Source of the DNA: a bacterium
Lineage (GTDB): Bacteria; UBP6; UBA1177; JAKLFG01
Direction of reading: 5' to 3'
DNA length: 64,000 nt
Assembly: GCA_022711315.1 (NCBI GenBank)
Contig: JAKLFG010000003.1
Span: forward strand, 23,890 to 87,889
Shown here: one piece after another, positions 3,676 to 56,161 of the stretch
How the letters are laid out: every line of letters begins with the position of its first letter
How positions within the stretch are numbered: the stretch's first letter is position 1
Program-made: the position numbers and the translations under genes
The notes under the pieces: generated by a model
Told to the model about the DNA's origin: nothing
The model's database searches: none
Seen by the model: the letters and a program-made list of their open reading frames with translations, nothing else

Positions 3676-4854
3676 TTATTCTTCAAGATCTACAATATAA
3701 AATTCCTTTGAGAAAACCGGCAACCCCTCGACCTTTTTTGAGGTGTTCTCCAGCAACACGGCCCCCCGATTGAGCTCGATCTTCGCCTTGTCGTTCCTCA
3801 TCAAGCCGAAATGCGCCTTGACGATGAGGAATATCTCCTGCCCTTCACTGTAGTGTAATTTATTCGCCAAGCCCTCGCTTTCGAAGGTGACATCGAACTC
3901 GTCGTCGAACTCTTCGATCTTTTCAATGGGTACCCGCTCCTCCTCGATCATGGGGTCGAGAATGCCGTCGCCCCCCAGATCGAGGTAGATCGATACCGAC
4001 CGTATCCCACTACCGAAGGTGACATAGTCGTCGGAGGGGATGCCGATCCTGATGCGGCGGATACGGTTGGCGGCATCGAGCGCCTTGGTACGCAGTTGCA
4101 GGACGGGAATATCCTTATTCACCTCCGTGGCAACGGGACTTTCCGGCGGCACGGGATCATTGTCTCCCCGGGTAACGATGAAATAATTCTCGGTCGGTTC
4201 CACGAGAAAGTCGGCGAAGTTGATCGCCGTCCCGTCCGGTTTGGCCGCGCCGGCATCTGAAAAGGAGAACGAATCCTCGCTTTCGATAATAAATCTGAAC
4301 GAAGCGCCGCCCGGCACCCTGTCGACCGCGAAATCGACATCGGCGCGGATGACGAAATAATGTTCCTCGCTACCGGCAAAGGATGACTTCTGCGGGTCAA
4401 GTATCAGAAAAACGCCGGTAGCGTCGGCGACCTCTTTGTAGGCGATCACCGGCTCGTCGGTGTCGACCGCGCCGTTCCTGTTCTTGTCGTACACGATCTC
4501 GATATTCTTCAGAACGATATTGAGATCGTCCCGCTGTATTTTCAACTGCAGGGAAACGAAGTAAAAGAAGTCGTTTTTCGCGCAGTTTTCCGCCACGAAA
4601 TTGAACTGACCGACGACCCGCCCCTTCGTTCCTTTCGGGATGATGATCGTACTCCCCATGCTGTCAGGCGAGTTGATCCCTTTTTCGTAGGAAACCGTTG
4701 CATCGACACATGCCGCCCCACTGCCGTACTCATCCGGTGACGGAACAACATCTTCGTCGCGGGAGGGATCGCCCCCGGAAGATCGCCCGTCACATCCGGA
4801 GTAAAACATCGCGAACAATCCCAGCATCATGGTCATAAAAAGACGAATGGACAT
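3676..4854 (-). CDS. Hypothetical lipoprotein (signal peptide ...FAMFYSGC, lipobox Cys)
   Basis: N-terminal signal with lipobox. No recognisable domain. Lower-GC stretches present. Confidence 0.55.
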   Translation of the reverse strand: MSIRLFMTMMLGLFAMFYSGCDGRSSGGDPSRDEDVVPSPDEYGSGAACVDATVSYEKGINSPDSMGSTIIIPKGTKGRVVGQFNFVAENCAKNDFFYFVSLQLKIQRDDLNIVLKNIEIVYDKNRNGAVDTDEPVIAYKEVADATGVFLILDPQKSSFAGSEEHYFVIRADVDFAVDRVPGGASFRFIIESEDSFSFSDAGAAKPDGTAINFADFLVEPTENYFIVTRGDNDPVPPESPVATEVNKDIPVLQLRTKALDAANRIRRIRIGIPSDDYVTFGSGIRSVSIYLDLGGDGILDPMIEEERVPIEKIEEFDDEFDVTFESEGLANKLHYSEGQEIFLIVKAHFGLMRNDKAKIELNRGAVLLENTSKKVEGLPVFSKEFYIVDLEE

Positions 4855-13792: not shown

Positions 13793-15337
13793 ATGAAACG
13801 AAGTGCACTCTGCCTTTTTTGTCTGTGTCTTACCGGCCTGATCGCGGCCTGCGATTCTTCGACCGCCCACAAGGACGCCGACACCGTCGGCGCATCGGAC
13901 ACCGACACCGTCGCGACCGACGAACTCACCGGCGACACCACCATCACCGACGGGCCGGTAACGGACACTGATGCCCCCCTTCCCGACCTATCGACCGACG
14001 ACGATACCCCGGCGACCGACGAACTCGTGACCGATACCGATGCCCCCGGGAGCGACGAACTGCTGACCGACACCGACGGGTATATCAACCCCGCCTGCTC
14101 TTCCGTCGGCGAGACCTGCGTCACCGGCATCGACTGCTGTTCCGGCGCCTGCGAGAAGAACCCGATCGGCGACTTCGTCTGCATCGATGCGGAACTTTGC
14201 GAGCCGGTGGGCGGCGACTGCACGGTGGCGGCCGACTGCTGTTCGCTCGGCTGCGACGGCACGACATGCATCGATTCTCTCTGCCTGGTCACCAACGACC
14301 CGTGCATCGACGACGCCGAATGCTGTTCCAACCGCTGTGAGGTCAATTTCTGCGCGAGCGGCGGCGCCTGCCTTCCCGTCGGCGAGGATTGTTCGACGGG
14401 CGGCTCGACAAGTTGCTGTTCGATGAACTGCGCCGAGGCATCGGACGGCAAGATGCGCTGTATGGGAATCGGGGTCTGCCGTTCCGAGGGCGAGGTCTGC
14501 AGCGAGGACAGCGACTGTTGCAATTACCAGTGCACCGCCGAAGGGTTCTGTCTGGTGCAGCAGGAATGCGATGTCGCCGGCGAGGCATGCAACGACCCGA
14601 AGGCCTGCTGCAGCGGCGTATGCGCCGATGACGGCAGCGGCTATAAATTCTGCCAGTCGCTCGGTGGGTGCAAGGTGTTCGGCGAATTGTGCCACACCGA
14701 TGCCGAGTGCTGTAACAACCCGGCCAACGGCGGTCCCGGCGTCTGCGCCGAGGTCGCGGAAGGGATAGGCCGTTGCGAGAACCCGACCGGCTGCGCACCG
14801 GCGGGCGAACTGTGCGGCGAGGGCTACCACGACTGCTGTCCCTGCGCGACGCCACAGGATTCGCCGGGGTGCCCGAACGACAACGGCGACCTGTTCTGTC
14901 AGGAGACGATATTCGGCATATCGCGCTGTTTCTCGGCCAACTGCGTCATCGAGGGTGGTCCCTGCGATTCGAACGACGATTGCTGCGGCGGCAACTGCAA
15001 CGAGGAGAACACCTGCGGCCCCGGGATCGAGTGCCTTCCCAACCTCTCCCCCTGCGCCATGCCCGACCAGTGCTGCTGCAACATCTGCGCGCCGGACGGG
15101 AACGGCGATCTGGTCTGCTGCCCCGGCGACATCGAATGCATCCCCGAGGGCGAACACTGCACGACCGACCTCGACTGCTGTTCGGGCAACTGCAGCGTCA
15201 ACGGCATCTGCGGACCCGACATATCCGACTGCATCCCGGTCGGCGGCGAATGCGAGAAGGATGAGGATTGCTGTTCCGGCTCCTGCTATGAGGTGACCGG
15301 CACCTGCAATAGCCCGTTCTTCTTTTTCGTCTATTGA
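13793..15337 (+). CDS. Secreted lipoprotein: acidic D/T linker plus about 13 tandem six-cysteine (C-C-CC-C-C) knottin/Dickkopf-like modules
   Basis: Signal CLCLTGLIAAC, a DTDTV-rich linker, then repeated C-x4-6-C-x5-6-CC-x3-C-x4-10-C units (e.g. CEPVGGDCTVAADCCSLGCDGTTC). Confidence 0.7.
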   Translation: MKRSALCLFCLCLTGLIAACDSSTAHKDADTVGASDTDTVATDELTGDTTITDGPVTDTDAPLPDLSTDDDTPATDELVTDTDAPGSDELLTDTDGYINPACSSVGETCVTGIDCCSGACEKNPIGDFVCIDAELCEPVGGDCTVAADCCSLGCDGTTCIDSLCLVTNDPCIDDAECCSNRCEVNFCASGGACLPVGEDCSTGGSTSCCSMNCAEASDGKMRCMGIGVCRSEGEVCSEDSDCCNYQCTAEGFCLVQQECDVAGEACNDPKACCSGVCADDGSGYKFCQSLGGCKVFGELCHTDAECCNNPANGGPGVCAEVAEGIGRCENPTGCAPAGELCGEGYHDCCPCATPQDSPGCPNDNGDLFCQETIFGISRCFSANCVIEGGPCDSNDDCCGGNCNEENTCGPGIECLPNLSPCAMPDQCCCNICAPDGNGDLVCCPGDIECIPEGEHCTTDLDCCSGNCSVNGICGPDISDCIPVGGECEKDEDCCSGSCYEVTGTCNSPFFFFVY

Positions 15338-15368
15338 CACGAGAACGAACTGATACCCGGGGTCTCAC

Positions 15369-16691
15369 ATGAAAAGGATCGTATTACTGTGGACAGGTGC
15401 CTGCCTGATGTTCCTTGTTGCGGCCTGCGACACGGAAAATGACGCTGCGGCCGACCATGAGGCGGCCGATGCCGACAGCGCCGTCACCGACGAACTGGTG
15501 ACCGACGCCGACACCGTCTCCTCCCCTATCGTCGAGCAGACCTTCGGTGCTTTTGCGCCATGGTCCTCCCCCATCGAGGATTTTCGTTCGTTCGGTGTTG
15601 ACAACATGATAGAGGGCTTCACGCAGGAGGTGACCGACCTCGCCGTTCTCGACGGCCGGCTCTGGTTCGGCTACGGCGACGCGAACCTCAATTTCGGCAC
15701 GAAGATGATAAAGTACGCCGGCGGCGGCATCCAGTTCCGCTACTTCGACAGCCCCGACGACGCGCAGGCGAAGGGCGATCTCTGGAGCGGCGACGAGATG
15801 ATCGAGCATTTCCGTGTCTTTGACGGCGACCTCTGGTATGCCGGGGTCGATTCGACCGATCAGGACGAACTCACCTCGCGGCCGCTCATCGGCGGCAACT
15901 TCTACCGCCACGATGACGACGGCTGGAAGAAGTTCCGCTCCGTCCCCGGCGGGGAGCATGTCCACGACGCCGCCTTCTTCGACGGCCGCATCTTCACCGT
16001 CGGTTCGGGGGCGACCGACCGCACCGAATGGGAGGCGGGCAACATCTTCCGCTATCTCTGGGAGTCGTCCGACCGCGGCGAGACCTTCACCGTGACCCAC
16101 CGCATCGGCCATCCGACGCAGGGCGGCGCGGGCGATTCGCGCTTCGTCCATCTCCTGCCGGTGGGCGACACGATGTATGTCTTCGGCTACTGGAGCGACT
16201 TCGCGGCGAATCAGGCCTATGTCGCCAACGCTTATTACGACGGCGAGACGGTGACCGAATTTACCGCCGAGGATACGAGCATCATCAAGGGGATCTGGCC
16301 GACCGCGACCCTGCCGCTGCCCAACGACACGGGGCTGGTGTGGGGCGTCAATGTCGACACGGCGACGCTCAAGTATCAGATCTGGCAGGTGGCGGCCGAC
16401 GGGACGGCCACGGCGCTCGACGCCTTCGCCGGGAAGCAGGTGTTCGATGTGGGCTACTATCCCGATACCGAAGAACTGCTTTACCTCGTCTACGACAGCG
16501 ACGCCTACGCGGAACTCGTCGATCCGGTCGCGGTGACCGTCTATGCCGCGCCGCTCGCCGACCCGAACGATATCAAAGAGATAGCTACCTTCACCGACCC
16601 GACAGTGCACCTCGTCTCGCTCGCCTACTGGCAGGGATATCTCTTTGCCGGTACCAACGATTGCCGCATATTCCGGGCGAACGCCGAATAA
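15369..16691 (+). CDS. Secreted lipoprotein, acidic linker plus putative beta-propeller
   Basis: Signal ...FLVAAC, D/A/T linker, and repeated blade-like DGRLWFGYG / DGDLWYAGV / DGRIFTVGSG motifs. Confidence 0.6.
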   Translation: MKRIVLLWTGACLMFLVAACDTENDAAADHEAADADSAVTDELVTDADTVSSPIVEQTFGAFAPWSSPIEDFRSFGVDNMIEGFTQEVTDLAVLDGRLWFGYGDANLNFGTKMIKYAGGGIQFRYFDSPDDAQAKGDLWSGDEMIEHFRVFDGDLWYAGVDSTDQDELTSRPLIGGNFYRHDDDGWKKFRSVPGGEHVHDAAFFDGRIFTVGSGATDRTEWEAGNIFRYLWESSDRGETFTVTHRIGHPTQGGAGDSRFVHLLPVGDTMYVFGYWSDFAANQAYVANAYYDGETVTEFTAEDTSIIKGIWPTATLPLPNDTGLVWGVNVDTATLKYQIWQVAADGTATALDAFAGKQVFDVGYYPDTEELLYLVYDSDAYAELVDPVAVTVYAAPLADPNDIKEIATFTDPTVHLVSLAYWQGYLFAGTNDCRIFRANAE

Positions 16692-16703
16692 TCTTTTTAG
16701 TTC

Positions 16704-18251
16704 TTACCGAGTATAGATCGGTGTGATGTCGATGGGGATGTCCTTTAGTTTCTCGAGGGCGTCAAGGATATCTTTGCCGGGATGGGCCCACTTCTTGACG
16801 AACGCCGCCGCCTCATCGGGCGTCGCCGCCGCCTCGATGCGGCACAACTCCTCCAGCAGGTCGTCGGCCGCCTTCGCGAAGTTGGCGTCGTGCGTCTCGA
16901 ACGAACCGTCGGGCTTCACCTCGATGACGCCGCGCTCCTTCATCCAGTTGTATTCGATGACATTCGCGCCGCCGTGCGCCTCGTGGACGCCGAACCGCAT
17001 CGAGCGGAAAAGCCCCGCGAAGAACGAATCGAGCAGCGGCCTTTTGCCGAACGCCGGGACGCCGTACTTGCCGCCCATCTTGAGGAGGAGCACCAACCCG
17101 CCCGTGTCGGCCTTCGCCTCTTCGACGGTGGTATAGGCCGATCCGATCGCGGAGGCGACCTTCGTGCCGTCGGCGCGGTAGGCGGGGCCGAGTCCGTGGC
17201 TCACTTCGTGCATGAGGACGAAGAAGAAGTAGGGGTCGAAGTCGGCGGTGATGCGCCCCTCCGATATCCGTTTGGCGATGACCGAGGTGCAGGTCTTGAA
17301 CTTCGCCTGCATGATGTTGTAGATCATCACCTGTTTCCAGCCGACATTCCCGCGCACCCACGGGTCGTTCGGCAGGTTGAAGGCGCTGGTCATGATGCCG
17401 TGGTAGGCCTCGCCCGACGCGTAGAGTTCGTGCGCCACCACCATCGGCGCCATCCCACCGACCGCCGGTTTCGCCCCGGCCGGCATCGGGAAGGCGGCGT
17501 TGAGTTTGTCGAGGTTATTCTCGATCTCTTTGAGCCGCGCCCCCTTTTCATGGTCGACCGCCAACAGGAAGCCTTCGTAGGTCGATTTGAGGCCGAGCAC
17601 GCCGTCGGCGTAGACCTCGAAGGGGCCGAAGACCAGTTCCAGCGGCGCGTCGGTGAGTTTCACCCATTCGGCCTCGGTCTCGGGATACTTGCCGGTGAGA
17701 AGCCCCTCGGCGCGGTTGAGGATGTATTTCTTGAGCCCCGCGTGCTTGACCAGCGCCGCCGCCTTTTTGAGATGTCCGGCGAGCCGCTCGAGGTCGGCGC
17801 GGTGATATTCATGGTAAGGAATGGCGATGAGTTTGCCACCCTCTTTGCGAACGACGGTGTAGGTATCGCGCAGTTTCTCCTGCTCGGCGGCGGAGAGTTT
17901 CGCGAAGGCCGCTTCGAGCGCCGCGGCATCCATCCCGTCGGGGTAGAAGGCACAGCCCTTAGCGCGATCGGGGAGATCGTCGGGGTAGACGGTGGCGTAG
18001 TCGCTGAGTTGGTCCCACGGCCCTTTGAAGCGGTTGTAGAACCGTTTCTTCTCTTCGTCGGCCCCGGCCATGACCTTCTTCCAGAGGCCGGGGAGCCGTT
18101 CGTCCTGCTGGCGCAGGTAGATGTCGGTCACCACATCGAGCGCCGCGATGAGGTGCGGCAGGGCGTCGCGGATGTCGTCGGTGAGTTTGGTCAGGTCGTA
18201 GCCGACCTCGATGGTCTTGAACTTCGCAAGGGCCTCGGCGGCGCGGGTCAT
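16704..18251 (-). CDS. Zinc metallopeptidase (HExxH...EExxAD), DPP III/M49-like
   Basis: HEVSHGLG and downstream EEAKAD motifs. Cytoplasmic, with no signal peptide. Confidence 0.55.
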   Translation of the reverse strand: MTRAAEALAKFKTIEVGYDLTKLTDDIRDALPHLIAALDVVTDIYLRQQDERLPGLWKKVMAGADEEKKRFYNRFKGPWDQLSDYATVYPDDLPDRAKGCAFYPDGMDAAALEAAFAKLSAAEQEKLRDTYTVVRKEGGKLIAIPYHEYHRADLERLAGHLKKAAALVKHAGLKKYILNRAEGLLTGKYPETEAEWVKLTDAPLELVFGPFEVYADGVLGLKSTYEGFLLAVDHEKGARLKEIENNLDKLNAAFPMPAGAKPAVGGMAPMVVAHELYASGEAYHGIMTSAFNLPNDPWVRGNVGWKQVMIYNIMQAKFKTCTSVIAKRISEGRITADFDPYFFFVLMHEVSHGLGPAYRADGTKVASAIGSAYTTVEEAKADTGGLVLLLKMGGKYGVPAFGKRPLLDSFFAGLFRSMRFGVHEAHGGANVIEYNWMKERGVIEVKPDGSFETHDANFAKAADDLLEELCRIEAAATPDEAAAFVKKWAHPGKDILDALEKLKDIPIDITPIYTR

Positions 18252-18416
18252 GGGAACCTCCCTGAAATGGTTTTCGGTCGGCGAAGGATAGCGCGCGGCG
18301 GCGGTGAAGTCAAAAGAAAAACAAACCGGAGCACCCCTTTACCCCCATTCTCCTTGCGTTTTTATACCGATATGATATCCTTCGCCGTCTGTTATCTTTA
18401 AAAGAGGGAGGGGTTC

Positions 18417-20765
18417 ATGAAGATCGTTCGCCTGTTCATCGTTCCCGTTTTTATCGTTTCTCTTCTTTTTGCCTGTAGCGAGAAGAAAAGCGACACCTTC
18501 ACGCCGAGAACGGCGAAAAAGACCGTCACGGCGGCCACGGGCGGCACCGTTTCGACGGCCGATGGCTCCGCATCGGTCGAGATACCGGCGGGCGCTCTTG
18601 CGCAGGACACCGAGATAACGATAACCGAGAAGAAGAAGGATGACTATCCCGAGGAGGAGAAACTGGCCAGTTCGGTCTGGCATTTCGGCCCCGACGGGCT
18701 GGTATTCGAAAAACCTATCACGATGAAGATCGATCTCGACCGCAACAAGGTGGAAGACGAGGTCGGCGTCATCGCGGTCCACCGCGAAGGGGCGTGGCAT
18801 TCTAAAGGCTATTCGGGGGGCGAGTACGCGGCGGGCGACCCCATCATGGCCGGTGACCCCATCATGGCCGGCGACCCCATCATGGCCGGCGACCCCATCA
18901 TGGCCGGCGACCCCATTATGTCGCAGGTGGGGCACTTCTCCGATTTCGCGATCTATGTGAGGGACAAGAACGATATCGGCCTGACCTGTGAGGAGATATA
19001 CGATTGCGCAGTACCGTGCGGTAACGACTTCGAGTGCATGAATGCCTGCAAGGCAGAGGGAAGCGTCAACGCGCAACCATTGTTCCAGGCACTGGTCGAT
19101 TGCTGGATGGAGAATTGCGACGCCGCCTGCGGCGACGGCGATCCGATCGCGTGCGACGCCTGCGCCTCCGAGAACTGCGCCTCTGAACTCGCCGCGTGCG
19201 GTGTCACACTCGGCGCCGACAGCGACACGACCGGTCGTGACGATATCGCGACCGACGATATCGCGACCGACGACATCCTGCCCGACGCCGATACGGTCAA
19301 GAACCCCGACGACCTGCTGGGCGAATGGGAGTTCACGACCGATAACGCCCATGTATCGGTTATGAAGGGCGAGACCGACGATTATATGCTCGACATCAGT
19401 TTCAACAGCACCGAGGAGTTCTACTACTCGCACGCCGGCACTTTCGACGGCTACACCTACACCGGCGATTATACCTACTGGGACGGCTCGACCGAGAAAA
19501 CGGCGGCGATGACGGTCGTCTTCACCCTGACCGGACCCAACACCGTGAATGTCGAGATAACGGCCGAGGCGCCGATGGGTAACCGGACGCTCACCGGCGG
19601 GGTACGCGCGGTCTACGATGAGGACAGCATCCTGCCCGATAGCGATACGGTCGGCCCGGTCTGCGGCAACACGGTGGTGGAGAGCGGCGAGACCTGCGAC
19701 AGCACCACGACCGCCTGCGCCGATTCGCTCTCGGGATCGACCGGCACCATCTACTGCTGCGCCGAGACCTGCAGTTGGAACATGGACCGCTGTGTGACCG
19801 ACAGTGTTTGCTATGGCGGCTCCTTCTACCAGTATGTTTCGACCTTCGACCTGTGCGTCAGGATCGGCACCGGCGTACCGCCGACCGAACAGATGGGGTG
19901 CTACGATGCGACGGGACCCATCTCCTGTCCGTTGGCAGCCGAAGCCTTCGCGGGGCAGGATGCGCAGTATTTCGGCGGCAAGACCAAAATGCTCGCGTCC
20001 TATTCAGAATCGGTCTACGATCAGCAGACCGGTCTTTCGTGGCAGAGAACCTTCGCGAGCGACTACTCGCTGGACGGCTATTGCGCCTCCGTGGACGGCT
20101 GCACCTGGGCCGAGGCGCAGTCCTTCTGCGCAGCACAGAACTGGGAGGGAGTGAGCGACTGGCGTCTGCCGACCGACCGCGAGATCGACACCATACTGCA
20201 CTTCGGCATGGAACCGATGTTCGATCCCGATTTTTTCCAGAACATCCCGGCGAACTACGGCCTCTGGACCACGATCGAGGTCCCCGATATGACCGGATAC
20301 GCCTATCAGGTCTATACCCATTCGGGCGCTTTCGAACCCTATGACCAGACGGCGGTCGCCAAAGTGCTCTGCGTAAGCGGCACCTACTATCAGCCGCTGA
20401 TGCAGGCGCTTTCCCTACTGCACGATAACGACCCGGTATGGTATGACGAGACGACCGGCCTGATGTGGGCTCCGGTGTCCAACACCATGGCGACATGGGA
20501 AAATGCGCTCGCCGAGTGCCTTATCTCGACCTATGCCGGCTACGACGACTGGCGTCTGCCAACCGCCAACGAACTGCGGACCATCTACGATCTGTCGGTG
20601 GGCGAATTCAGCGGGACCGAATTTCCCGGAGACTGGCAGGTGGAGCAGTGGACCTCCACGACCGCCGGGTATTCCCCCGAGGCGGCCTATGTAGTGAACG
20701 GGATGGTCGGTGCGCGCTATCCGATGTACAAACTAAATCCCGGCGGCGTCCGCTGCGTGCGGTAA
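18417..20765 (+). CDS. Secreted lipoprotein with (AGDPIM)5 tandem repeat, Cys-rich region and two DUF1566 (Lcl C-terminal-like) domains
   Basis: Signal ...SLLFAC. The two DUF1566 domains are TGLSWQ...WAEAQSFC...DWRLPTDREIDTIL and TGLMWAP...WENALAEC...DWRLPTANELRTIYD. Confidence 0.7.
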   Translation: MKIVRLFIVPVFIVSLLFACSEKKSDTFTPRTAKKTVTAATGGTVSTADGSASVEIPAGALAQDTEITITEKKKDDYPEEEKLASSVWHFGPDGLVFEKPITMKIDLDRNKVEDEVGVIAVHREGAWHSKGYSGGEYAAGDPIMAGDPIMAGDPIMAGDPIMAGDPIMSQVGHFSDFAIYVRDKNDIGLTCEEIYDCAVPCGNDFECMNACKAEGSVNAQPLFQALVDCWMENCDAACGDGDPIACDACASENCASELAACGVTLGADSDTTGRDDIATDDIATDDILPDADTVKNPDDLLGEWEFTTDNAHVSVMKGETDDYMLDISFNSTEEFYYSHAGTFDGYTYTGDYTYWDGSTEKTAAMTVVFTLTGPNTVNVEITAEAPMGNRTLTGGVRAVYDEDSILPDSDTVGPVCGNTVVESGETCDSTTTACADSLSGSTGTIYCCAETCSWNMDRCVTDSVCYGGSFYQYVSTFDLCVRIGTGVPPTEQMGCYDATGPISCPLAAEAFAGQDAQYFGGKTKMLASYSESVYDQQTGLSWQRTFASDYSLDGYCASVDGCTWAEAQSFCAAQNWEGVSDWRLPTDREIDTILHFGMEPMFDPDFFQNIPANYGLWTTIEVPDMTGYAYQVYTHSGAFEPYDQTAVAKVLCVSGTYYQPLMQALSLLHDNDPVWYDETTGLMWAPVSNTMATWENALAECLISTYAGYDDWRLPTANELRTIYDLSVGEFSGTEFPGDWQVEQWTSTTAGYSPEAAYVVNGMVGARYPMYKLNPGGVRCVR
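18831..18920 (+). repeat. Perfect in-frame tandem repeat, 5 x 18 bp (gc[cg]gg[ct]gaccccat[ct]atg) encoding AGDPIM
   Basis: Read directly from the sequence, five consecutive units. Confidence 0.9.
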
Positions 20766-20828
20766 GAGATAAAAGTCGTTGCTTTTTATCTCTTTCGCGT
20801 TACTATCCTTCGTTCCTTTTAGCGGAGT

Positions 20829-22304
20829 ATGCCCATGAAGATGTCCCGTGGACGCCTCGCCTTCTTTTTATCCGGACTTTCTCTTTTTGCCTTTACCGCC
20901 TGTACGCCGCCCGAGGAAGAGACCTACTGCGAAACCTCGTATGATTGCCCCGACGGGTGGGAATGCGGCCCCGAGTATGTGTGTATCGAGCCCGGCACCG
21001 ACAATAACACCGGAGGGAACGACAACGCACTTCCCGACACGATCGGACCAGACACCGCCGTGGAGGAAGACCTGCCGACCGATGACGGCGAGGCCCCGGT
21101 GACCGATACGGAAGAAGACACTTTTATCGACACGGATGAGCCGCTCATAGATGCGGATGAGCCGACGACCGGCGACATAGAACCTTCCGACACGAACGAT
21201 ATAACGCCCGATAGCGATAACAGCGTCAACGAATGCGATCAGAACAACGGAGGGTGCGCGCAGAATTGCGCCGACACCGCGGACGGGTATACCTGTTCGT
21301 GCGACGACGGCTATACACTGAACGCCGACAAGCATGCCTGCGACGACAACGACGAATGCACGGAGAACACCAATCCCTGCGACAACAATGGCGACACGCC
21401 GGCGACCTGCGCCAATACACCGGGCAGTTACACCTGCACCTGCACCGCGCTCCGGTTCGAGTTCACGAACGGATCCTGCTTCGACATCGACGAATGTACC
21501 GCCGGCACCGACAACTGCGCGGAGACGGGAAGTTCCTGCACCAACAGCGTCGGCCTCTTTTCCTGCGCCTGCGACGACTACTACGATGGCGACGGAACGA
21601 CCTGCGCTCTCTGCGACACCGATGGCAAGTGCGGTGCGGATTGTCTCTCCTGCGAAGGGGCAACGCCTCACTGCAAGGACAACGGGAACGGCACGACCCA
21701 ATGCGTCCAATGTACGGACAACGCCCACTGCAACACCGGCGCGGGAGAGGTCTGCAATGCTCAGAACATCTGCACCGCGTGCCCCCTACCGCTGACGATC
21801 GCCACCTGGGCCAGCGACGATGAGGGATGGACGAGGACCGGCAACTGGGTACGGGAAACAACGAGTGACGGGTGGATGCGTTACGACGATGACTCGCATA
21901 AGACCAACTACGATCACTCCCTCACCTATGCTACCGACATCAATATTGCGGGTTGCTCCGCCGCCACTTTGAGTTTCTCGATCACTTTCATGGATTATGT
22001 GTACACCACCGACGCCGACAAATCGGAGAAAATGTATGTGGAATGTTCGGGTGACGGGGGTGGCAGTTGGAACACCCTTGTCCCCACCCCCTATCCCGCC
22101 AATCAGTCTTCTTCTCGTTGTTCGAACTGCTATTGCGACGGAGACAGTTCGAGTTTCAGCGAAAAATCTTTCGGATGGACCGCGCAGAACATAACTCTTC
22201 CCGTCGCCTGCAAGACATCCGCCGTCCGTATCCGTTTCAGGGCAAAAGGCACCGACTCCTGGGCCATCAATTACTGGGGCATCGACACGGTGATATTGAA
22301 CTAA
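20829..22304 (+). CDS. Secreted lipoprotein with calcium-binding EGF-like domains and a C-terminal MAM-like beta-sandwich
   Basis: Lipobox ...FAFTAC, N-terminal CETSYDCPDGWEC module, and an acidic linker. cbEGF signatures are DIDECTAGTDNCAETGSSCTNSVGLFSCAC and NECDQNNGGCAQNC..GYTCSC. Confidence 0.7.
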   Translation: MPMKMSRGRLAFFLSGLSLFAFTACTPPEEETYCETSYDCPDGWECGPEYVCIEPGTDNNTGGNDNALPDTIGPDTAVEEDLPTDDGEAPVTDTEEDTFIDTDEPLIDADEPTTGDIEPSDTNDITPDSDNSVNECDQNNGGCAQNCADTADGYTCSCDDGYTLNADKHACDDNDECTENTNPCDNNGDTPATCANTPGSYTCTCTALRFEFTNGSCFDIDECTAGTDNCAETGSSCTNSVGLFSCACDDYYDGDGTTCALCDTDGKCGADCLSCEGATPHCKDNGNGTTQCVQCTDNAHCNTGAGEVCNAQNICTACPLPLTIATWASDDEGWTRTGNWVRETTSDGWMRYDDDSHKTNYDHSLTYATDINIAGCSAATLSFSITFMDYVYTTDADKSEKMYVECSGDGGGSWNTLVPTPYPANQSSSRCSNCYCDGDSSSFSEKSFGWTAQNITLPVACKTSAVRIRFRAKGTDSWAINYWGIDTVILN

Positions 22305-22324
22305 CGATACGGGGAGTCGGTATC

Positions 22325-24121
22325 ATGTCATATCGTTTTTTCGTGAGACTTTTTTTCTTGTCGCTTATTTTTCTCCTGACCGTTTCCTGTTCATCAAAAA
22401 GCGGGCCGGTCAGTTGCGTCACCTCGTTCGATTGTCCCGGCGATCAGGTCTGTGGTGAAGAGGGCTGGTGCGTTGATCCCTCCGAGACAGATACCGACAC
22501 GGTCGACCGTGACACGATCGATCACGACCTGGTCGATACCCCCGTGACCGATACCGACGCCCCTGACGGCGACCATACCGATCAAGTAGGCGATACCGAC
22601 CAGGCCGACCCCCTCTCCACCGACGAGGACACCATCCTCCCCGACGAAGACACATCGGAACCCGATGATGACGCTCTCCTCATCGATGATGACCTCCTCC
22701 CCTCCCCCTGCGGCAACGGCCTGCCCGACGAAGGCGAGGAATGCGATGACGGGAACAAGAATAATGAGGACAACTGCCGGAATGACTGCTCCTACAATGT
22801 CTGCGGTGACGGCACCCCTCTGAAGACGGACGGAGCGACGCTCCTGCTCCCGCTCAACGAAGGAAGCGGTACAACGGTCACCGACCTTTCGGGTAAGGGC
22901 AACCACGGAACGATCAACGGAGCGGCGTGGGGCGAGGGCCGCTTCGGCACCGGCCTTGGTTTTGCCGGTATCAATTCAGTATTCGTGCCCGAAGCGCTCT
23001 CGCTGAAATTGGGTACCGCCATGACCGTCTCGGCGTGGGTGAAGATCGCGACGATGCCCGCCAACTATGTCGCCATCATCCAGAAGGACGGTGATTCGTT
23101 GCGTAATTACGGCCTTTTCATCACCGGGTCCGATCAACCCGCTTCACAGGGGACGGTCCTCTTCTCCCTGACCAGCGGCACGCCCGGCGACTGGCGAAGC
23201 GCCGTTTCGGCGACCAGCATCGTCGACGGTGCTTGGCATCATGTCATGGGGACCTACGACGGCCAGCATATGCGGATATATATCGATGGTTTCGAACAGG
23301 GGGCCGTCGCTGTGGATGTCGTTCCCGCCGATACCGACGGCGGGGTCTTCATAGGGAACGGTGTGAACGGCGCCATTGACGATATCAGGGTCTATGACCG
23401 AGTACTCGACACCGTCGAAATGGCTGAGATGTCGAACAAACGCATACACATACATCTTGACGAATTATCGGGCGCCGCGGTACTCGACAGTTCAGGCAAC
23501 GGGCTTGACGGCACCATCATGGGAGTCGATCGCGTCGCGGGAAGGTACCGCAACGGACTCTCCTTCAACGGGGTATCGGGGCAAATGACGGTCCCCCACA
23601 GCGATCTCCTGAGCATCGGCGCATCGATGACGCTCTCGCTCTGGGTAAGGACCGCCGTCATCCCGACGAAATGGGTGCGCATCCTCGGCAAGAGCGACTC
23701 CTCCTGCGCCAACCGCAACTACGGCATCTGGATAGAACCGAGTACCGGCAACATCCTTTTCCAGATCGAAGCGACGAACTGGCTCCACCTCCTTTCCGAC
23801 ATCGCGGTGACCGACGAGGGGTGGCATCAGGTCGTCGCGACCTATGACGGCATCGCCGCCCGGATATTCATCGATGGCCAACTACACGCCGAACAGGCCT
23901 ATGCCGAAGCGCCGATCCTGTCTGCCGGACCGTTGACCATCGGCGGCGGTTGCGGCGAACCACCCATGAACGGCGGTATCGACGAAGTGCGCATCTATAA
24001 TCGGGCGCTCTCGATCGATGAGATAGCGGTGCTCCCGCTCTACACGACGCAACTCTGCGACGACGAAAACACCGTCGACGGCGACGGGTGCTCGGCGACC
24101 TGCTCACCCGAACCGCTCTGA
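22325..24121 (+). CDS. Secreted lipoprotein: 2 x LamG-like (Laminin_G_3) domains plus Myxococcus-type cysteine-rich repeats
   Basis: Start at internal Met (MSYRFFVRLFFLSL...) with lipobox ...TVSC. Contains CGNGLPDEGEECDDGN...CGDG and C-terminal LCDDENTVDGDGC. LamG signatures are WHHVMGTYDG..IDDIRVYDRVL and WHQVVATYDG..IDEVRIYNRAL. Confidence 0.7.
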   Translation: MSYRFFVRLFFLSLIFLLTVSCSSKSGPVSCVTSFDCPGDQVCGEEGWCVDPSETDTDTVDRDTIDHDLVDTPVTDTDAPDGDHTDQVGDTDQADPLSTDEDTILPDEDTSEPDDDALLIDDDLLPSPCGNGLPDEGEECDDGNKNNEDNCRNDCSYNVCGDGTPLKTDGATLLLPLNEGSGTTVTDLSGKGNHGTINGAAWGEGRFGTGLGFAGINSVFVPEALSLKLGTAMTVSAWVKIATMPANYVAIIQKDGDSLRNYGLFITGSDQPASQGTVLFSLTSGTPGDWRSAVSATSIVDGAWHHVMGTYDGQHMRIYIDGFEQGAVAVDVVPADTDGGVFIGNGVNGAIDDIRVYDRVLDTVEMAEMSNKRIHIHLDELSGAAVLDSSGNGLDGTIMGVDRVAGRYRNGLSFNGVSGQMTVPHSDLLSIGASMTLSLWVRTAVIPTKWVRILGKSDSSCANRNYGIWIEPSTGNILFQIEATNWLHLLSDIAVTDEGWHQVVATYDGIAARIFIDGQLHAEQAYAEAPILSAGPLTIGGGCGEPPMNGGIDEVRIYNRALSIDEIAVLPLYTTQLCDDENTVDGDGCSATCSPEPL

Positions 24122-24212
24122 CAAATACCTCCACAGAGCGCTTGCTTTTTGCCCCCCGGTACTCTAAAATGCTCCCTGTTGGTGATTTACTTTCTCTGGA
24201 AGAGGACGATTC

Positions 24213-25202
24213 ATGAGAATACTTTTTTACCTCGTTTTCTCTATTTCACTATCGATCATTCTTCCCCTTGCCTGCGCCACGCCCGAGGATGACCCCTACT
24301 ACTGCGAGACGACGCTCGACTGCGCCGACGGCTGGGAATGCATCGATCATTCCTGCGTCATTTCGGTCAACACGGACGATACCGACGGCGGAACGGACGA
24401 CAAAACACTCCCGGAAGTTGAGACACCGCTCCCCGACGCCGATCTTTCCCCGGTCGAAGACGATGCTATTACTGACGGTCTGACGCCGGACGATGCGGTC
24501 GACGAGAACACGGTCGACGAAATCGATGTTGACGAAGACGCGATCCCCGTCGATGAGAACACCGATGATGAGACGGCTGACCTCACCGATACCACAGACG
24601 GTGCGTTCGACCTCGACACGACCGACGATGCCGTGACCGACGAGGCGGTCGATATCGACACGGTCGATGAAGCGATCGATATCGACACCGTTGACGAACA
24701 GCCCGACGAGGATGCCACGGTCACCTGCGAGAGCGTGACGATGGGTTTTGACGGCACCTGGACCGACCCGCGAGGCAACAATTGGACGCTGAATTGCACA
24801 GGCACCGGCTGCATCAACTGGATATATTCCCACGCCATTTACGACAACCGCGCCGCGCACGAGCCACCGACCAACGCCGAGACGAGCACCGCCTATCTGG
24901 TCAGCCCGGAATATCACCGGAAAAACGGTTGTCCCCTCACGGTCACCTACGACTACCGGTTCCAAGAGAACTCGACGACCGCCGATTCCCTGAAACTGGA
25001 GGTCTGTCAGGGCTCCTGTTCCTCATGGACGACCGTGAAGACCTGGAACTCCTTCACCTCATCTATCTACGGTGAATCGACCGACCTTTCGGCTCAGGTC
25101 ACCCCCGGATCGACCTTCAAGGTCCGCTGGGCGCACTACTCGCCGAAGGTGACGACGCACTACACGGCCTGGGTCGATAATTTCAAGATAGACGGCATCT
25201 AA
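24213..25202 (+). CDS. Secreted lipoprotein: CETTLDCADGWEC module, acidic linker, MAM-like C-terminal domain
   Basis: Lipobox ...PLAC. The N-module is shared with the 20829 gene. The C-terminal beta-sandwich resembles the C-terminus of the 20829 gene product. Confidence 0.6.
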   Translation: MRILFYLVFSISLSIILPLACATPEDDPYYCETTLDCADGWECIDHSCVISVNTDDTDGGTDDKTLPEVETPLPDADLSPVEDDAITDGLTPDDAVDENTVDEIDVDEDAIPVDENTDDETADLTDTTDGAFDLDTTDDAVTDEAVDIDTVDEAIDIDTVDEQPDEDATVTCESVTMGFDGTWTDPRGNNWTLNCTGTGCINWIYSHAIYDNRAAHEPPTNAETSTAYLVSPEYHRKNGCPLTVTYDYRFQENSTTADSLKLEVCQGSCSSWTTVKTWNSFTSSIYGESTDLSAQVTPGSTFKVRWAHYSPKVTTHYTAWVDNFKIDGI

Positions 25203-46595: not shown

Positions 46596-46745
46596 CCGCC
46601 ATCCCGCCCTGTCACTGTAGGCCGTCCCGGACGAGACTGTGGTACAGTGTCGACAGGCCGGAAGCCGCAGCATTCATGCGAGGTAAGGGTTGGGTGGGTT
46701 TTATTAAAAACGGGAGATCACTTCGCGCACCGGAAGCCGAAGTAG
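46596..46745 (-). repeat. Copy 1 of a conserved ~150-bp 3'-end/3'-flank element (last codons FGFRCAK plus ~120 nt structured downstream region)
   Basis: About 90% identical by eye to 47889-48035. Contains an interrupted 12-bp inverted repeat (cctgtc-gac-actgta ... tacagtgacagg). Confidence 0.8.
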
Positions 46746-47653
46746 TCGGCGATGCTACCCTCGCCAACGTCGACGCGAGAGGACGCGCGCAAGTAGATCA
46801 AGTAGATGACAAGGTCGTGGCGCCACGACCCACCGCGCATCACGCGACCATCACCGGTTTCTGGCCCCGTGGGGTTGTTTGTAGGCGACGAAGTGTAGTA
46901 ATCCTCATCATACCGGTCGTTCACCCACTCCCAAACATTCCCTATCATGTCGTGGGCGCCGTAGGGCGATACGCCGTTCGGCTTGCTTCCTACCGGCATC
47001 GTGCCGTCGGTGCCACAACCCTCGCCGCCAGCATCGTCATCGTCCATGACGGCATAATCGCACGATACGGCCGGGGTATCACCCCACGGATATTTCCTGC
47101 CGTCGGTCCCTCTGGCCGCTTTTTCCCATTCCGCCTCGGTCGGTAGGCGACCGCCTATCCACTCGCAGTAGGCCTTCGCCCCGTACCAAGACAGGCAATT
47201 CATGGGATGATTGTCCCTATCGGGTGCCCCGAGGTTGCAATAGGGGATGTCGGTGTTTGTGTAATAGTGCGGTTCATTCTCGTTGCTATTATTGCAGGTG
47301 CCGTTGGTCACGCACTGCTGGTATTCACCGACGGTCACTTCGTATTTGCCGATCTTGTAGGCCGAGAGCGTCACTGCATGGTACGGGGATTCATCACCCT
47401 CGCATTGATCATCCACCGCCTCGTTACACCCCATCCAGAATTCACCGGCGGGGACTTCCACCATCTCCCCCGGCGTACCAGTGTTTCCCCCCGTGTCGGC
47501 ATCGGGCTGTTCCGTGTCGGGGATCGTTGAATCGTTGGTCACCGTATCGTTGATCACCGTGTCGGTGTCGGGCGTTTCGGTCCCGTCATCGCCACAGGAA
47601 ACGATGAAAAGAACCGCCATCATCACAAGAAGGCCGCTCAATATGCCTTTCAT
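46718..47653 (-). CDS. FGE-sulfatase (SUMF1/EgtB/PvdO-fold) domain lipoprotein, copy 1
   Basis: Lipobox ...LFIVSC. GNVWEWVND and RVMRGGSW motifs of PF03781-type domains. Confidence 0.75.
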   Translation of the reverse strand: MKGILSGLLVMMAVLFIVSCGDDGTETPDTDTVINDTVTNDSTIPDTEQPDADTGGNTGTPGEMVEVPAGEFWMGCNEAVDDQCEGDESPYHAVTLSAYKIGKYEVTVGEYQQCVTNGTCNNSNENEPHYYTNTDIPYCNLGAPDRDNHPMNCLSWYGAKAYCEWIGGRLPTEAEWEKAARGTDGRKYPWGDTPAVSCDYAVMDDDDAGGEGCGTDGTMPVGSKPNGVSPYGAHDMIGNVWEWVNDRYDEDYYTSSPTNNPTGPETGDGRVMRGGSWRHDLVIYLIYLRASSRVDVGEGSIADYFGFRCAK

Positions 47654-47888
47654 GCTTCTCCTCCTTCCGTCGGTTGATGAAAAACGCTATGAATCGATCG
47701 TTTGTTTTGAAGAAATATTTTTACAGACAGACAGCAATCGGTGTACCGTAATAACCCGTCAGAACAGGAAAAAATCATCGTTCGCCTCATAGAAGACAGC
47801 GGAATTATAACAAGCGGAGATGAAAAGACAAGAAAAGGTAGGATCGCACAAACCCCCTCATTCCCCCTTGACAGAGAGAGGGGGACGA

Positions 47889-56140: not shown

Positions 56141-56161
56141 ACAATAAGTATCTGGTAAGGA

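What the first reader, a model, noticed from the sequence alone, without database searches (positions are those of the whole stretch)
13793..25202. Dense family of secreted lipoproteins sharing a 'lipobox, mini disulfide module, acidic D/T/E/P linker, variable C-domain' architecture
Six of seven genes in this 11.4-kb stretch, and others at 3676, 56451 and 58272, encode lipoproteins whose mature N-terminus is a long, extremely acidic, low-complexity linker (DTDTV…, TDDIATDDIA…, DDTTDNAS…) followed by different globular domains. Three of them begin with the same 4-Cys mini-module right after the lipobox: CETSYDCPDGWECGPEYVC, CETTLDCADGWECIDHSCV and CVTSFDCPGDQVCGEEGWC. The same module type is repeated 9 times in tandem in the 56451 protein (for example CLFDFQCPDGWICADNVC). 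The C-terminal domains are all eukaryotic-extracellular-matrix-like: cbEGF, LamG, MAM-like, knottin-like and DUF1566. This looks like a lineage-specific, rapidly diversifying surface or adhesion protein family rather than housekeeping content.
Basis: partly seen in the sequence, partly recalled or inferred. Interest (0 to 1): 0.6.

Follow-up and report, generated by a model that had tools for sequence, protein, structure and literature searches.

The report
Acidic-stalk lipoproteins with swapped binding domains
An uncultured digester bacterium attaches many different binding and inhibitor domains to one shared front end (lipid-anchor signal, sometimes a tiny disulfide hairpin, then a long acidic floppy stalk); the parts are known kinds and the function is untested, so this is a tidy but only moderately novel case.

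Summary
Six of the seven genes in 13793-25202 start with a lipoprotein-type signal peptide. Seven more such genes lie elsewhere in the window, about 13 of about 48 genes in all. Acidic low-complexity linkers are 41-251 aa long, with 26-40% D+E, at most 2 K+R and a net charge of -10 to -86.

The 4-Cys module is real and already named. It is a single copy of the TIGR04201 'Myxo_Cys_RPT' / Pfam DUF7107 / Dickkopf_N-like repeat. It occurs nine times in g56451. The C-domain labels also hold.

This is a shared architecture, not one homologous family. Unrelated domains sit behind an exchangeable leader, stalk and optional cap.
- Three genes share a roughly 130-nt RBS, signal-peptide and lipobox cassette, yet carry different domains.
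- g20829 is a recombinant mosaic.
- Gene content around conserved neighbours differs between related genomes.
- Linkers change by in-frame repeat indels.

Folded domains are under purifying selection (dN/dS 0.16-0.25). The island is 100% identical in seven assemblies. 'Rapidly diversifying' therefore applies only to gene content, linkers and domain swaps.

The most likely role is envelope-anchored, probably surface-exposed, binding or inhibitor proteins held out on polyanionic stalks. Localisation is untested.

Verdict: new variant of a known kind, moderate interest.

The parts
13793..15337 (+). g13793 (514 aa): lipobox IAAC at Cys20, acidic linker at residues 21-107, then 12 knottin-like (C-x6-C-x5-CC-x3-C-xn-C) repeats. 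80 Cys in all.
   Evidence: 73 homologues, 49 of them with a lipobox. Weak Conotoxin_I2 and Omega-toxin hits.
15369..16691 (+). g15369 (440 aa): lipobox VAAC, a 41-aa acidic linker, and a C-domain of unknown family.
   Evidence: Absent from the orthologous position in L009.
16704..18251 (-). Peptidase_M49-like gene. Not a member. Conserved anchor used to fetch the related loci.
18417..20765 (+). g18417 (782 aa): lipobox LFAC, ZU5-like domain, five AGDPIM repeats, a Cys-rich segment, an internal acidic linker (residues 257-305), and two Lcl_C (DUF1566) domains.
20829..22304 (+). g20829 (491 aa): lipobox FTAC, 4-Cys module (20928-20984), acidic linker (residues 61-143), FXa_inhibition and cbEGF modules, and a MAM/Reelin-B-like jelly roll.
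   Evidence: Mosaic relative to its L007 orthologue.
22325..24121 (+). g22325 (598 aa): lipobox TVSC, 4-Cys module (22415-22471), acidic linker (residues 50-150), myxo_disulf_rpt, and two Laminin_G_3 domains.
   Evidence: Gene calls of 598 aa in public assemblies. Absent from this position in L007.
24213..25202 (+). g24213 (329 aa): signal peptide with the atypical box PLAC, 4-Cys module (24303-24356), a 135-aa acidic linker, and a MAM/CBM-like beta sandwich.
46718..47653 (-). g46718 (311 aa): lipobox IVSC, acidic linker, FGE-sulfatase domain.
   Evidence: Tandem duplicate of g48008.
48008..48994 (-). g48008 (328 aa): lipobox VVAC, 4-Cys module CYGNGTCDGDLVCLSNVC (48833-48886), acidic linker, FGE-sulfatase domain.
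49071..49433 (-). g49071 (120 aa): small Cys-rich lipoprotein. Its mature end, C-D-K-D-D, matches the K-(D/E)2 surface-export motif of Bacteroidota.
   Evidence: Motif from PMC5080379.
50189..50686 (-). g50189 (165 aa): lipobox VVAC followed by an Lcl_C domain.
47580..47710 (-). Shared 5' cassette (RBS, signal peptide, lipobox and first mature residues). Other copies at 48921-49051 and 50613-50743.
   Evidence: 73-90% nucleotide identity, followed by abrupt divergence (family D3).
56451..58253 (+). g56451 (600 aa): lipobox LISC, a 251-aa acidic linker, nine 4-Cys modules (57234-57950), and a C-terminal 8-stranded beta domain.
58272..59492 (-). g58272 (406 aa from ATG 59492): lipobox FVAC, a 53-aa acidic linker, and a duplicated domain of unknown family.
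3676..4854 (-). g3676 (392 aa): signal peptide with the atypical box YSGC and only a short, mildly acidic stretch. Weak member.

Best explanation
These genes are not one protein family. They share a common N-terminal 'delivery and display' architecture that this uncultured lineage places in front of many unrelated extracytoplasmic domains.

Proposed mechanism, step by step:
1. A Sec signal peptide with a lipobox directs export, cleavage and lipidation of the new N-terminal Cys. The protein is therefore membrane-anchored (inferred from sequence).
2. In a subset, one copy of the TIGR04201/DUF7107-type 4-Cys unit folds into a small disulfide-stapled beta hairpin next to the anchor (predicted).
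3. A stretch of 40-250 residues rich in D/E/T/P, with almost no K or R, is disordered and strongly anionic. It acts as an extended stalk or spacer that holds the C-terminal domain away from the membrane. The disorder is predicted. The spacer role is inferred.
4. The C-terminal domains are ligand-binding or inhibitor modules:
- LamG and MAM/CBM-like jelly rolls;
- Lcl_C and FGE-sulfatase domains, which I recall to have C-type-lectin-like folds;
- cbEGF;
- knottin-like and Dickkopf-like arrays;
- Kazal domains in relatives.
The likely job is binding of glycans, proteins or other cells, or blocking of foreign proteases, at the cell surface or on vesicles of a diderm cell living in digester sludge (inferred).

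The set evolves by three routes: gain and loss of genes, in-frame repeat indels in the stalks, and recombination that swaps leaders and terminal domains. The folded domains themselves stay under purifying selection (shown).
For: Lipobox and h-region in 11-13 genes and in none of the other window genes.

Linker composition: 26-40% D+E, at most 2 K+R, net charge -10 to -86. Housekeeping proteins of the same window are charge-balanced.

AF2 predictions:
- The g24213 linker (residues 51-170) has pLDDT below 50.
- The module is predicted as a hairpin, and the C-domain as a beta sandwich.
- That sandwich matches MAM, CBM and Eph-LBD folds at E 4e-6 to 1e-3.
- The g56451 repeats are predicted as nine units of a turn plus a hairpin, mean pLDDT 79.7.

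Module identity:
- The A3 profile of the g56451 repeat region retrieves proteins that score E 2e-60 on TIGR04201 and 3.5e-84 on DUF7107.
- hhalign of the N-terminal single modules against those repeat units gives probability 97% and E 3e-11.

Domain calls.

Diderm context: an OMP beta-barrel gene at 49463-50083 and a Wzi-like gene.

Modular evolution:
- A shared 5' cassette in front of different domains.
- The g20829 mosaic: dS 0.22, 0.74 and 1.89 along the gene.
- P0005 is a chimera.
- Synteny differs between related genomes.
- In-frame tandem repeats lie in the linkers.
- Linkers are 51-72% identical and hold most of the indels, against 80-96% for all but one of the folded domains compared.
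- dN/dS is 0.16-0.25 against 0.05-0.12 for neighbouring genes.

Precedent:
- Disordered N-terminal linkers are common in lipoproteins and matter for their sorting (bioRxiv 10.1101/2021.01.05.425367, abstract seen).
- Acidic residues after the Cys drive surface export in Bacteroidota (PMC5080379).
Against: - No experimental data exist on lipidation, localisation or ligands.
- Six of 13 proteins have Asp at +2. By my recollection, in E. coli this signals inner-membrane retention.
- The strict Bacteroidota motif K-(D/E)2 is met by only one protein (g49071).
- Two signal peptides are off the lipobox pattern.
- Single modules do not reach the TIGR04201 cut-off on their own.
- The hhalign inputs were picked with a Cys-spacing regular expression, which inflates that score.
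- The organism appears to be an anaerobe, and no disulfide-forming system was looked for.
- FGE-sulfatase domains may be enzymes rather than binders.
Confidence: 0.6

Rival explanations
1. They are periplasmic lipoproteins, anchored in the inner membrane or in the inner leaflet of the outer membrane. The acidic linker is the ordinary disordered tether used for Lol sorting, or for spanning the periplasm and cell wall. It is not a surface display stalk.
For: - Asp at +2 in 6 of 13 proteins, which by my recollection is the Lol-avoidance signal in E. coli.
- N-terminal disordered linkers are frequent in E. coli outer-membrane lipoproteins that face the periplasm (10.1101/2021.01.05.425367).
- The spirochaete lipoprotein TP0751 has the same layout of disordered region plus small barrel. 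Its surface exposure is questioned in PMC7521688 (abstract). It is a weak fold match to the g56451 C-domain.
Against: - Linkers of 80-250 residues are far longer than the linkers of about 22 residues or more that I recall for E. coli lipoproteins.
- The lectin, CBM, EGF, knottin and Kazal domains have no obvious periplasmic targets.
- By my recollection, +2 rules do not carry over between phyla.
Confidence: 0.2
2. The disulfide-rich members are primarily defensive or offensive effectors, that is protease inhibitors or toxin-like binders, rather than adhesins. These members are the g13793 knottin array, the g56451 repeat array with its small barrel, and the Kazal proteins of relatives. On this view the stalk merely keeps them at the envelope.
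For: - Kazal domains in the L013 members, E 3.5e-13 and 6e-15.
- Weak hits to knottin toxin families.
- The g56451 C-terminal barrel resembles the lipoprotein protease inhibitors potempin E (8ehc) and U-Omp19 (7mhw): Foldseek probability 1.0, E 0.016-0.044, TM 0.16-0.61.
Against: - The fold matches are not significant by E-value.
- This does not explain the LamG, Lcl_C, MAM-like or FGE members.
- No reactive-site analysis was possible.
Confidence: 0.12
3. There is no shared system. The similarity is only compositional, because low-complexity acidic segments and Cys-rich motifs arise easily in a GC-rich genome, and the clustering is coincidental.
For: - DNA similarities between linkers are short (30-53 nt, 62-84% identity) and of low complexity.
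- The C-domains are unrelated to one another.
- Promoter and terminator scans are at chance level.
Against: - 13 of about 48 genes carry a lipobox-type signal, and none of the other genes matches the pattern.
- The acidic bias is absent from housekeeping proteins.
- There is a near-identical 130-nt leader cassette in three genes.
- The N-termini of g20829 and g24213 align at E 6e-9.
- The same architecture recurs in orthologues and in new members of related genomes.
Confidence: 0.05

Closest known systems
TIGR04201 'Myxo_Cys_RPT' Cys-rich repeat, the stalk region of the Myxococcus xanthus TraA cell-surface receptor (Pathak et al. 2012, PMC3325183). Equivalent to Pfam DUF7107 and related to Dickkopf_N.
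   Same: - Same unit: C-x5-C-x5-C-x4/5-C, with a D-x-D-C-x2-G core.
- Found in exported, cell-surface-type proteins next to a variable binding domain.
- The A3 profile of g56451 retrieves TIGR04201/DUF7107-positive proteins.
- hhalign probability 97%.
- In g20829 the conserved proximal part combined with a divergent terminal domain recalls TraA, whose papers describe a polymorphic receptor (abstracts).
   Different: - Here the unit is mostly a single copy placed directly after a lipobox. TraA has a tandem array between a PA14 domain and a MYXO-CTERM tag.
- Anchoring is N-terminal through a lipid, not through a C-terminal sorting tag.
- Single copies fall below the model's cut-off.
- The organism is not an identified myxobacterium.
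Lipoprotein export signal (LES) of surface lipoproteins in Bacteroidota (Lauber et al. 2016, PMC5080379)
   Same: A lipidated Cys followed at once by a negatively charged segment. 12 of 13 proteins have at least one D or E at positions +2 to +6. g49071 reads C-D-K-D-D.
   Different: - The LES is a short positional motif, K-(D/E)2 at about +3 to +5. Only one protein here fits it.
- The acidic region here is 40-250 residues long.
- The phylum is different, and no export machinery has been identified.
Intrinsically disordered N-terminal linkers or 'tethers' of bacterial lipoproteins. Examples are E. coli outer-membrane lipoproteins (El Rayes et al., bioRxiv 10.1101/2021.01.05.425367), Borrelia surface lipoproteins (own knowledge) and T. 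pallidum TP0751 (PMC7521688).
   Same: A disordered segment lies between the lipid anchor and the folded domain. AF2 gives pLDDT below 50 across the linker.
   Different: The linkers here are much longer, extremely acidic, partly built from tandem repeats, and variable in length between species.
Secreted cysteine-rich repeat proteins, 'SCREPs' (Maxwell et al. 2018, PMC6262176), and knottin (ICK) toxin families such as Conotoxin_I2, Omega-atracotoxin and Toxin_12
   Same: - g13793 has 12 tandem units with the C-C-CC-C-C framework. g56451 has nine 4-Cys units.
- Homologues reach the Pfam thresholds for Conotoxin_I2 and Omega-toxin.
- The SCREP survey reports bacterial members.
   Different: - These are lipid-anchored bacterial proteins with an acidic stalk, not soluble venom peptides.
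- The window protein itself scores below threshold.
- The knot topology is untested.
Lcl_C / DUF1566 lipoprotein paralogues. The NCBIfam model Lsa25 is described as a 'surface adhesin'. That the family is expanded in Leptospira is my own recollection.
   Same: Lipobox followed by Lcl_C domains in several paralogues (g18417, g50189). Weak hit to the NCBIfam Lsa25 model, E 0.0023.
   Different: - The score is far below the Lsa25 cut-off (17.8 against 260 bits).
- Here the domain is combined with ZU5-like, Cys-rich and acidic-linker modules.

Membership tests
Bacterial lipoproteins (Lgt/LspA substrates) | N-terminal signal peptide with a positively charged n-region and a hydrophobic h-region | tested here: met
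   All 13 have 1-2 K/R in the first 8 residues and a hydrophobic stretch ending at the Cys.
Bacterial lipoproteins (Lgt/LspA substrates) | Lipobox ending in the invariant Cys (PROSITE PS51257-style pattern, written from memory) | tested here: met
   11 of 13 match. g24213 (PLAC) and g3676 (YSGC) deviate at -3. None of about 35 other window genes matches.
Bacterial lipoproteins (Lgt/LspA substrates) | Actual diacylglyceryl modification and signal peptidase II cleavage | not testable with these tools
   Needs labelling, globomycin treatment or mass spectrometry.
TIGR04201 Myxo_Cys_RPT / Pfam DUF7107 repeat | Score above the curated HMM cut-off (25 bits for TIGR04201, 24.6 for DUF7107) | tested here: not met
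   - Single N-terminal modules give no hit.
- g56451 module 9 scores 14.8 bits.
- The L016 module scores 23.6 bits.
- Whole g56451 scores DUF7107 19.8 and Dickkopf_N 24.7, just under the cut-offs.
TIGR04201 Myxo_Cys_RPT / Pfam DUF7107 repeat | Homology by profile: same Cys spacing and D-x-D-C-x2-G core, and a transitive link to bona fide members | tested here: met
   - The A3 profile finds P0110, P0130, P0139 and P0165 (E 4e-14 to 3e-5).
- These score TIGR04201 at 2e-60 to 2e-9 and DUF7107 at up to 3.5e-84.
- hhalign of A4 against A5 gives probability 97.2% and E 3e-11. Caveat: the inputs were chosen with a regular expression.
TIGR04201 Myxo_Cys_RPT / Pfam DUF7107 repeat | Disulfide-bonded fold | tested here: inconclusive
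   AF2 predicts a turn plus a beta hairpin per unit. There was no significant PDB fold match.
Bacteroidota LES-bearing surface lipoproteins | K-(D/E)2 or Q-A-(D/E)2 at about +2 to +6 after the Cys | tested here: not met
   Only g49071 (C-D-K-D-D) fits. The others are acidic but lack the motif.
Bacteroidota LES-bearing surface lipoproteins | Demonstrated surface exposure | not testable with these tools
   No cultured organism and no proteomic data.
Knottin / inhibitor cystine knot | Six-Cys framework C-C-CC-C-C with the typical loop lengths | tested here: met
   12 units of C-x5/6-C-x5/6-CC-x2/3-C-x4-10-C in g13793.
Knottin / inhibitor cystine knot | Significant match to a knottin family model, and the knotted I-IV, II-V, III-VI disulfide topology | tested here: inconclusive
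   The window protein scores E 0.016-0.023, below the cut-offs. Homologues P0029 and P0035 pass Conotoxin_I2, and P0035 passes Omega-toxin. Topology was not tested.
MAM domain | Match to a MAM-type sequence model (Pfam MAM was among the models scanned) | tested here: not met
   No MAM hit. g20829 hits Reelin_subrepeat-B at E 1e-6, and g24213 has no Pfam hit.
MAM domain | Jelly-roll beta-sandwich fold shared with MAM, CBM and ephrin-receptor ligand-binding domains | tested here: met
   Foldseek hits: LAST-MAM 8a28 (6e-6), meprin 7uae (3e-4), neuropilin MAM 5l73 (7e-4), several CBMs and EphA7. The model is only of moderate confidence (C-domain pLDDT about 65-90).
Phase-variable surface lipoprotein families (Mycoplasma Vlp/Vsp type; own knowledge) | Conserved 5' region and signal peptide shared by paralogues with divergent, repetitive mature parts | tested here: met
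   A 131-nt cassette shared by g46718, g48008 and g50189 at 73-90% identity. Tandem repeats lie in the linkers.
Phase-variable surface lipoprotein families (Mycoplasma Vlp/Vsp type; own knowledge) | Hypermutable switch: repeat-number change or inversion seen between isolates | tested here: not met
   (GTCT)7 upstream of g50189 is invariant in 9 assemblies. The island is 100% identical in 7 assemblies.

The most novel reading that the evidence does not exclude
An unclassified bacterial lineage may build its whole surface 'adhesome' from an exchangeable cassette: promoter and leader, lipobox, an optional TIGR04201-type Cys hairpin, and a polyanionic repeat stalk. Recombination would graft this cassette onto binding or inhibitor domains that look captured from eukaryotes. 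The stalk layer would form a charged brush, working like mucins or teichoic acids. The Cys hairpin would be a recognition element for a surface-lipoprotein export route that has not yet been described.
Probability: 0.12. Interest if true: 0.65.

Novelty: new variant of a known kind. Interest (0 to 1): 0.4.

Why it matters
If the stalks do display these domains on the cell surface, the locus gives a compact and readable example of how an uncultured digester bacterium assembles and reshuffles its contact surface. It also offers a practical rule for finding such proteins in metagenome-assembled genomes (MAGs): a lipobox, sometimes one TIGR04201-type unit, then a long stretch of D/E/T/P without K or R.

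It extends the TraA-type Cys repeat beyond the role and the lineage in which it was defined. Here the repeat is a single anchor-proximal cap, in a bacterium that NCBI leaves unclassified.

It also flags two large, unstudied families of disulfide-rich bacterial repeat proteins:
- 12-unit knottin-like arrays, with 73 homologue clusters found;
- 9-unit Dickkopf-like arrays, with only 14 clusters among 1.84 billion representatives.

None of this overturns current views. Disordered lipoprotein tethers, modular adhesins and Cys-rich repeats are all established.

Tried and rejected
- Phase variation by the (GTCT)7 tract in the g50189 leader: the copy number is 7 in all 9 assemblies that cover it. Rejected.
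- Strain-level hypervariability: 18251-25300 is 100% identical in 7 assemblies. Rejected. These may come from related reactors.
- Positive selection: whole-gene dN/dS is 0.16-0.25. The very divergent MAM-like domain of g20829 also has dS 1.89, so it reflects recombination and not selection.
- Two dN/dS values above 2 (g11694, g9724) are artefacts of wrongly chosen ORF starts. They were ignored.
- Promoter and terminator scans are at chance level.
- PDB sequence searches for g15369, g58272 and g18417 found nothing.
- The fold of the repeat array has no significant PDB match.
- Taxonomic placement failed. Every NCBI name is 'bacterium'. Records of 85-92% relatives say 'uncultured Spirochaetales bacterium', and 57-60% relatives say 'Candidatus Sumerlaeota'. 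The phylum is left open.
- Bacteroidota-type O-glycosylation of D-[ST]-x motifs in the linkers was considered from memory only and was not tested.
- Short DNA similarities between linkers were judged too low in complexity to prove exchange.

Full report
**What is there**

The window has about 60% GC. Its proteins match, at 100% identity, a 'MAG TPA: bacterium' assembly and contigs from several ENA, JGI and Logan metagenome samples.

In 13793-25202 there are seven genes. Six lie on the + strand and begin with a short basic n-region, a hydrophobic stretch and a Cys:
- g13793
- g15369
- g18417
- g20829
- g22325, whose real start is the ATG at 22325; public gene calls give 598 aa
- g24213

The seventh gene, 16704-18251 (-), is a Peptidase_M49 homologue without a signal peptide.

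I scanned all six reading frames for a lipobox followed by an acidic window. It produced only two spurious ORFs, both non-acidic.

A PROSITE-style lipobox pattern, written from memory, is met by 11 of the 13 candidates and by none of the other roughly 35 genes. g24213 (PLAC) and g3676 (YSGC) deviate at position -3. So about a quarter of the genes in this window encode lipobox proteins.

**The linker**

The acidic segments are 41-251 residues long. They have 26-40% D+E, 10-23% T, at most two K+R, and a net charge of -10 to -86. Housekeeping proteins of the same window are charge-balanced, with 12-15% D+E against 11-14% K+R. The bias is therefore not a property of the whole proteome.

Parts of the linkers are encoded by in-frame tandem repeats with periods of 12, 15, 18, 24, 36 and 48 nt.

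AlphaFold2 gives pLDDT below 50 for residues 51-170 of g24213, as expected for a disordered segment.

One correction is needed. In g18417 the acidic 'TDDIA' stretch is internal (residues about 257-305). It follows a ZU5-like domain, five AGDPIM repeats and a Cys-rich segment.

**The 4-Cys module**

A fourth single copy is in g48008, and g56451 has nine tandem units.

This module is not new. I built a profile of the g56451 repeat region (A3) and searched it against 1.84 billion cluster representatives. It found only 140 proteins at E of 0.001 or less, and 14 at E of 1e-30 or less. Among the weaker hits, P0110, P0130, P0139 and P0165 are strong members of two named families:
- NCBIfam TIGR04201 'Myxo_Cys_RPT' (E 2e-60 to 2e-9);
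- Pfam DUF7107 / Dickkopf_N (E down to 3.5e-84).

TIGR04201 was defined for the Cys-rich region of the Myxococcus TraA surface receptor (PMC3325183).

A profile of twelve single modules matches a profile of TIGR04201-positive repeat units with 97% probability and E 3e-11. Eleven of the twelve lie next to the lipobox; the twelfth is the last repeat unit of g56451. Both sets were picked with a Cys-spacing pattern, which flatters that score. On their own, the single modules do not reach the curated cut-off.

AF2 predicts each unit as a short turn plus a beta hairpin. No solved structure matches the array significantly. The N-terminal region of Dkk4 appears only at E 0.33.

The layout 'lipobox, one module, low-complexity linker' also occurs in other proteins from the representative search, for example P0096, P0100, P0114 and P0129. 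The L016 locus, whose record is titled Candidatus Sumerlaeota, has the same layout with a GNT-repeat linker.

**The C-terminal domains**

- g20829: FXa_inhibition, EGF_CA, cEGF and Reelin_subrepeat-B.
- g22325: the myxo_disulf_rpt repeat and two Laminin_G_3 domains.
- g18417: a ZU5 domain and two Lcl_C (formerly DUF1566) domains.
- g46718 and g48008: FGE-sulfatase.
- g50189: Lcl_C.
- g24213: no Pfam hit. Its modelled beta sandwich matches MAM domains (8a28, 7uae, 5l73), CBMs, Eph ligand-binding domains and reelin at E 4e-6 to 1e-3.
- g13793: twelve units of C-x6-C-x5-CC-x3-C-xn-C. Its 73 homologue clusters include proteins from Deltaproteobacteria and Myxococcales MAGs. At least 49 of them have a lipobox, and some pass the Pfam thresholds for Conotoxin_I2 and Omega-toxin.
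- g56451: ends in an eight-stranded beta domain. It weakly resembles small barrels of lipoproteins and lipid-binding proteins: potempin E, U-Omp19, Tp0751 and FABP.
- g15369 and g58272: unassigned.

The exception is the claim that all are of eukaryotic matrix type.

**Relatives and evolution**

I used the M49 gene as an anchor and fetched 16 related loci. The lipoprotein orthologues are 72-84% identical, against 91-97% for neighbouring housekeeping genes. Their dN/dS is 0.16-0.25 against 0.05-0.12. Selection is relaxed but still purifying.

Conservation differs by region:
- folded domains: 80-96% identical, apart from the MAM-like domain of g20829 (49%, see below);
- the module: 83-93%;
- linkers: 51-72%, holding most of the indels;
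- signal peptides: 19-81%.

Orthologues of g56451 range from 351 to 596 aa, mostly because of the linker.

Gene content varies between genomes:
- g15369 is missing in L009.
- Extra DNA separates the genes in L010 and L011.
- In L009, L010 and L013 the M49 gene is flanked by ackA- and tpiA-like genes (named by me from their N-terminal sequences) and by different lipoproteins.
- L007 lacks the LamG gene. It carries instead a 636-aa member with the module, a stalk, and Big_5 and EGF domains.

These points rest. Relatives also attach the same stalk to Kazal and CAP domains.

Three observations point to recombination of modules.
1. g46718, g48008 and g50189 share a cassette of about 130 nt that holds the RBS, signal peptide and lipobox. 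Identity is 73-90%. The genes then diverge abruptly into FGE-sulfatase or Lcl_C domains.
2. g20829 is a mosaic relative to its L007 orthologue. dS is 0.22 over residues 1-135 and 0.74 over the EGF part. Over the MAM-like domain dS is 1.89, dN is 0.47 and amino-acid identity is 49%.
3. P0005 joins a g24213-type domain to a g20829-like Cys-rich segment.

The N-terminal 129 residues of g20829 and g24213 align at E 6e-9.

GC3 of the genes at 20.8-25.2 kb is 0.71-0.74, against 0.81-0.87 for housekeeping genes.

There is no sign of fast switching. The (GTCT)7 tract upstream of g50189 is invariant in nine assemblies. The 7-kb island is 100% identical in seven assemblies.

**Interpretation**

The best reading is a shared 'anchor, optional Cys cap, polyanionic stalk' format, used by this lineage to hold diverse binding and inhibitor domains at the envelope.

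Two findings point to a diderm cell: an OMP beta-barrel gene and a Wzi-like gene.

Surface exposure is plausible by analogy with two known cases:
- the acidic lipoprotein export signal of Bacteroidota (PMC5080379);
- disordered lipoprotein tethers (10.1101/2021.01.05.425367).

It is not shown, however. Asp at +2 in six proteins would mean inner-membrane retention under the E. coli rule (own knowledge).

I put 0.6 on the display-stalk model and 0.2 on a periplasmic tether. I put about 0.12 on a mainly inhibitor or effector role for the disulfide-rich members, and 0.05 on coincidence.

**Verdict**

The components are known kinds. The combination, its density in this genome and the evidence for cassette shuffling make it a new variant of a known kind, of moderate interest (0.4).

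Noticed in passing
window 47580-47710, 48921-49051, 50613-50743 (- strand genes): Three lipoprotein genes with different C-domains share a near-identical RBS, signal-peptide and lipobox cassette. g46718 and g50189 also share about 90 nt further upstream (47723-47813 and 50771-50861, 76% identity).
   Followed up: yes
window 50753-50782: An (AGAC)7.5 microsatellite, read as (GTCT)7 on the coding strand, lies in the leader of g50189. The paralogous site upstream of g46718 has 3 copies. The copy number is invariant in 9 assemblies, so there is no evidence of phase variation.
   Followed up: yes
window 21789-22304 (g20829 residues 321-491) versus L007 1945-3417: The terminal MAM-like domain is only 49% identical to its orthologue (dS 1.89), while the rest of the gene is 82-88% identical (dS 0.22-0.74). 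This is a recombinant domain replacement.
   Followed up: yes
window 18528-18731 and 18830-18920 (g18417): A ZU5-like domain sits directly after the lipobox, followed by five perfect AGDPIM repeats (18-nt period). The same ZU5-like, anchor-proximal domain recurs in many unrelated hits of the representative search (P0108, P0112, P0135, P0148 and others). Two public contigs break inside the repeat.
   Followed up: partly
window 15311-15337 (C-terminus of g13793): The knottin-array protein ends in the hydrophobic tail NSPFFFFVY. Orthologues end in DPFLF or DPFLL. This may be a C-terminal signal of unknown meaning.
   Followed up: no
L013 13003-14274 and 14300-15769; L007 4546-6456; L014 6482-7585: Related genomes carry lipobox plus acidic-stalk proteins with Kazal protease-inhibitor domains, with Big_5 and EGF, and with a CAP domain. 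The window has none of these.
   Followed up: partly
window 46596-49054: Tandem duplication, with a period of about 1.27-1.34 kb, of an FGE-sulfatase lipoprotein gene including its 3' flank (94-95% identity). GC falls to 0.54-0.55 over 48-52 kb.
   Followed up: partly
window 49463-50083 and 51847-53445: An OMP beta-barrel gene and a Wzi-like (capsule assembly) gene lie beside the second lipoprotein cluster. They indicate a diderm, probably capsulated, cell.
   Followed up: partly
window 56052-56331: A tRNA-Leu(taa), tRNA-Cys(gca) and tRNA-Gly(gcc) cluster lies immediately upstream of g56451.
   Followed up: no
window 25741-29965: Genes for an NADH-dependent ferredoxin or hydrogenase-type flavoprotein complex (Fer2_4/Pyr_redox_2, Complex1_51K, 2Fe-2S_thioredx) suggest an anaerobic fermenter. 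That makes the very high content of extracytoplasmic cysteine (up to 15.6% in g13793) noteworthy.
   Followed up: no
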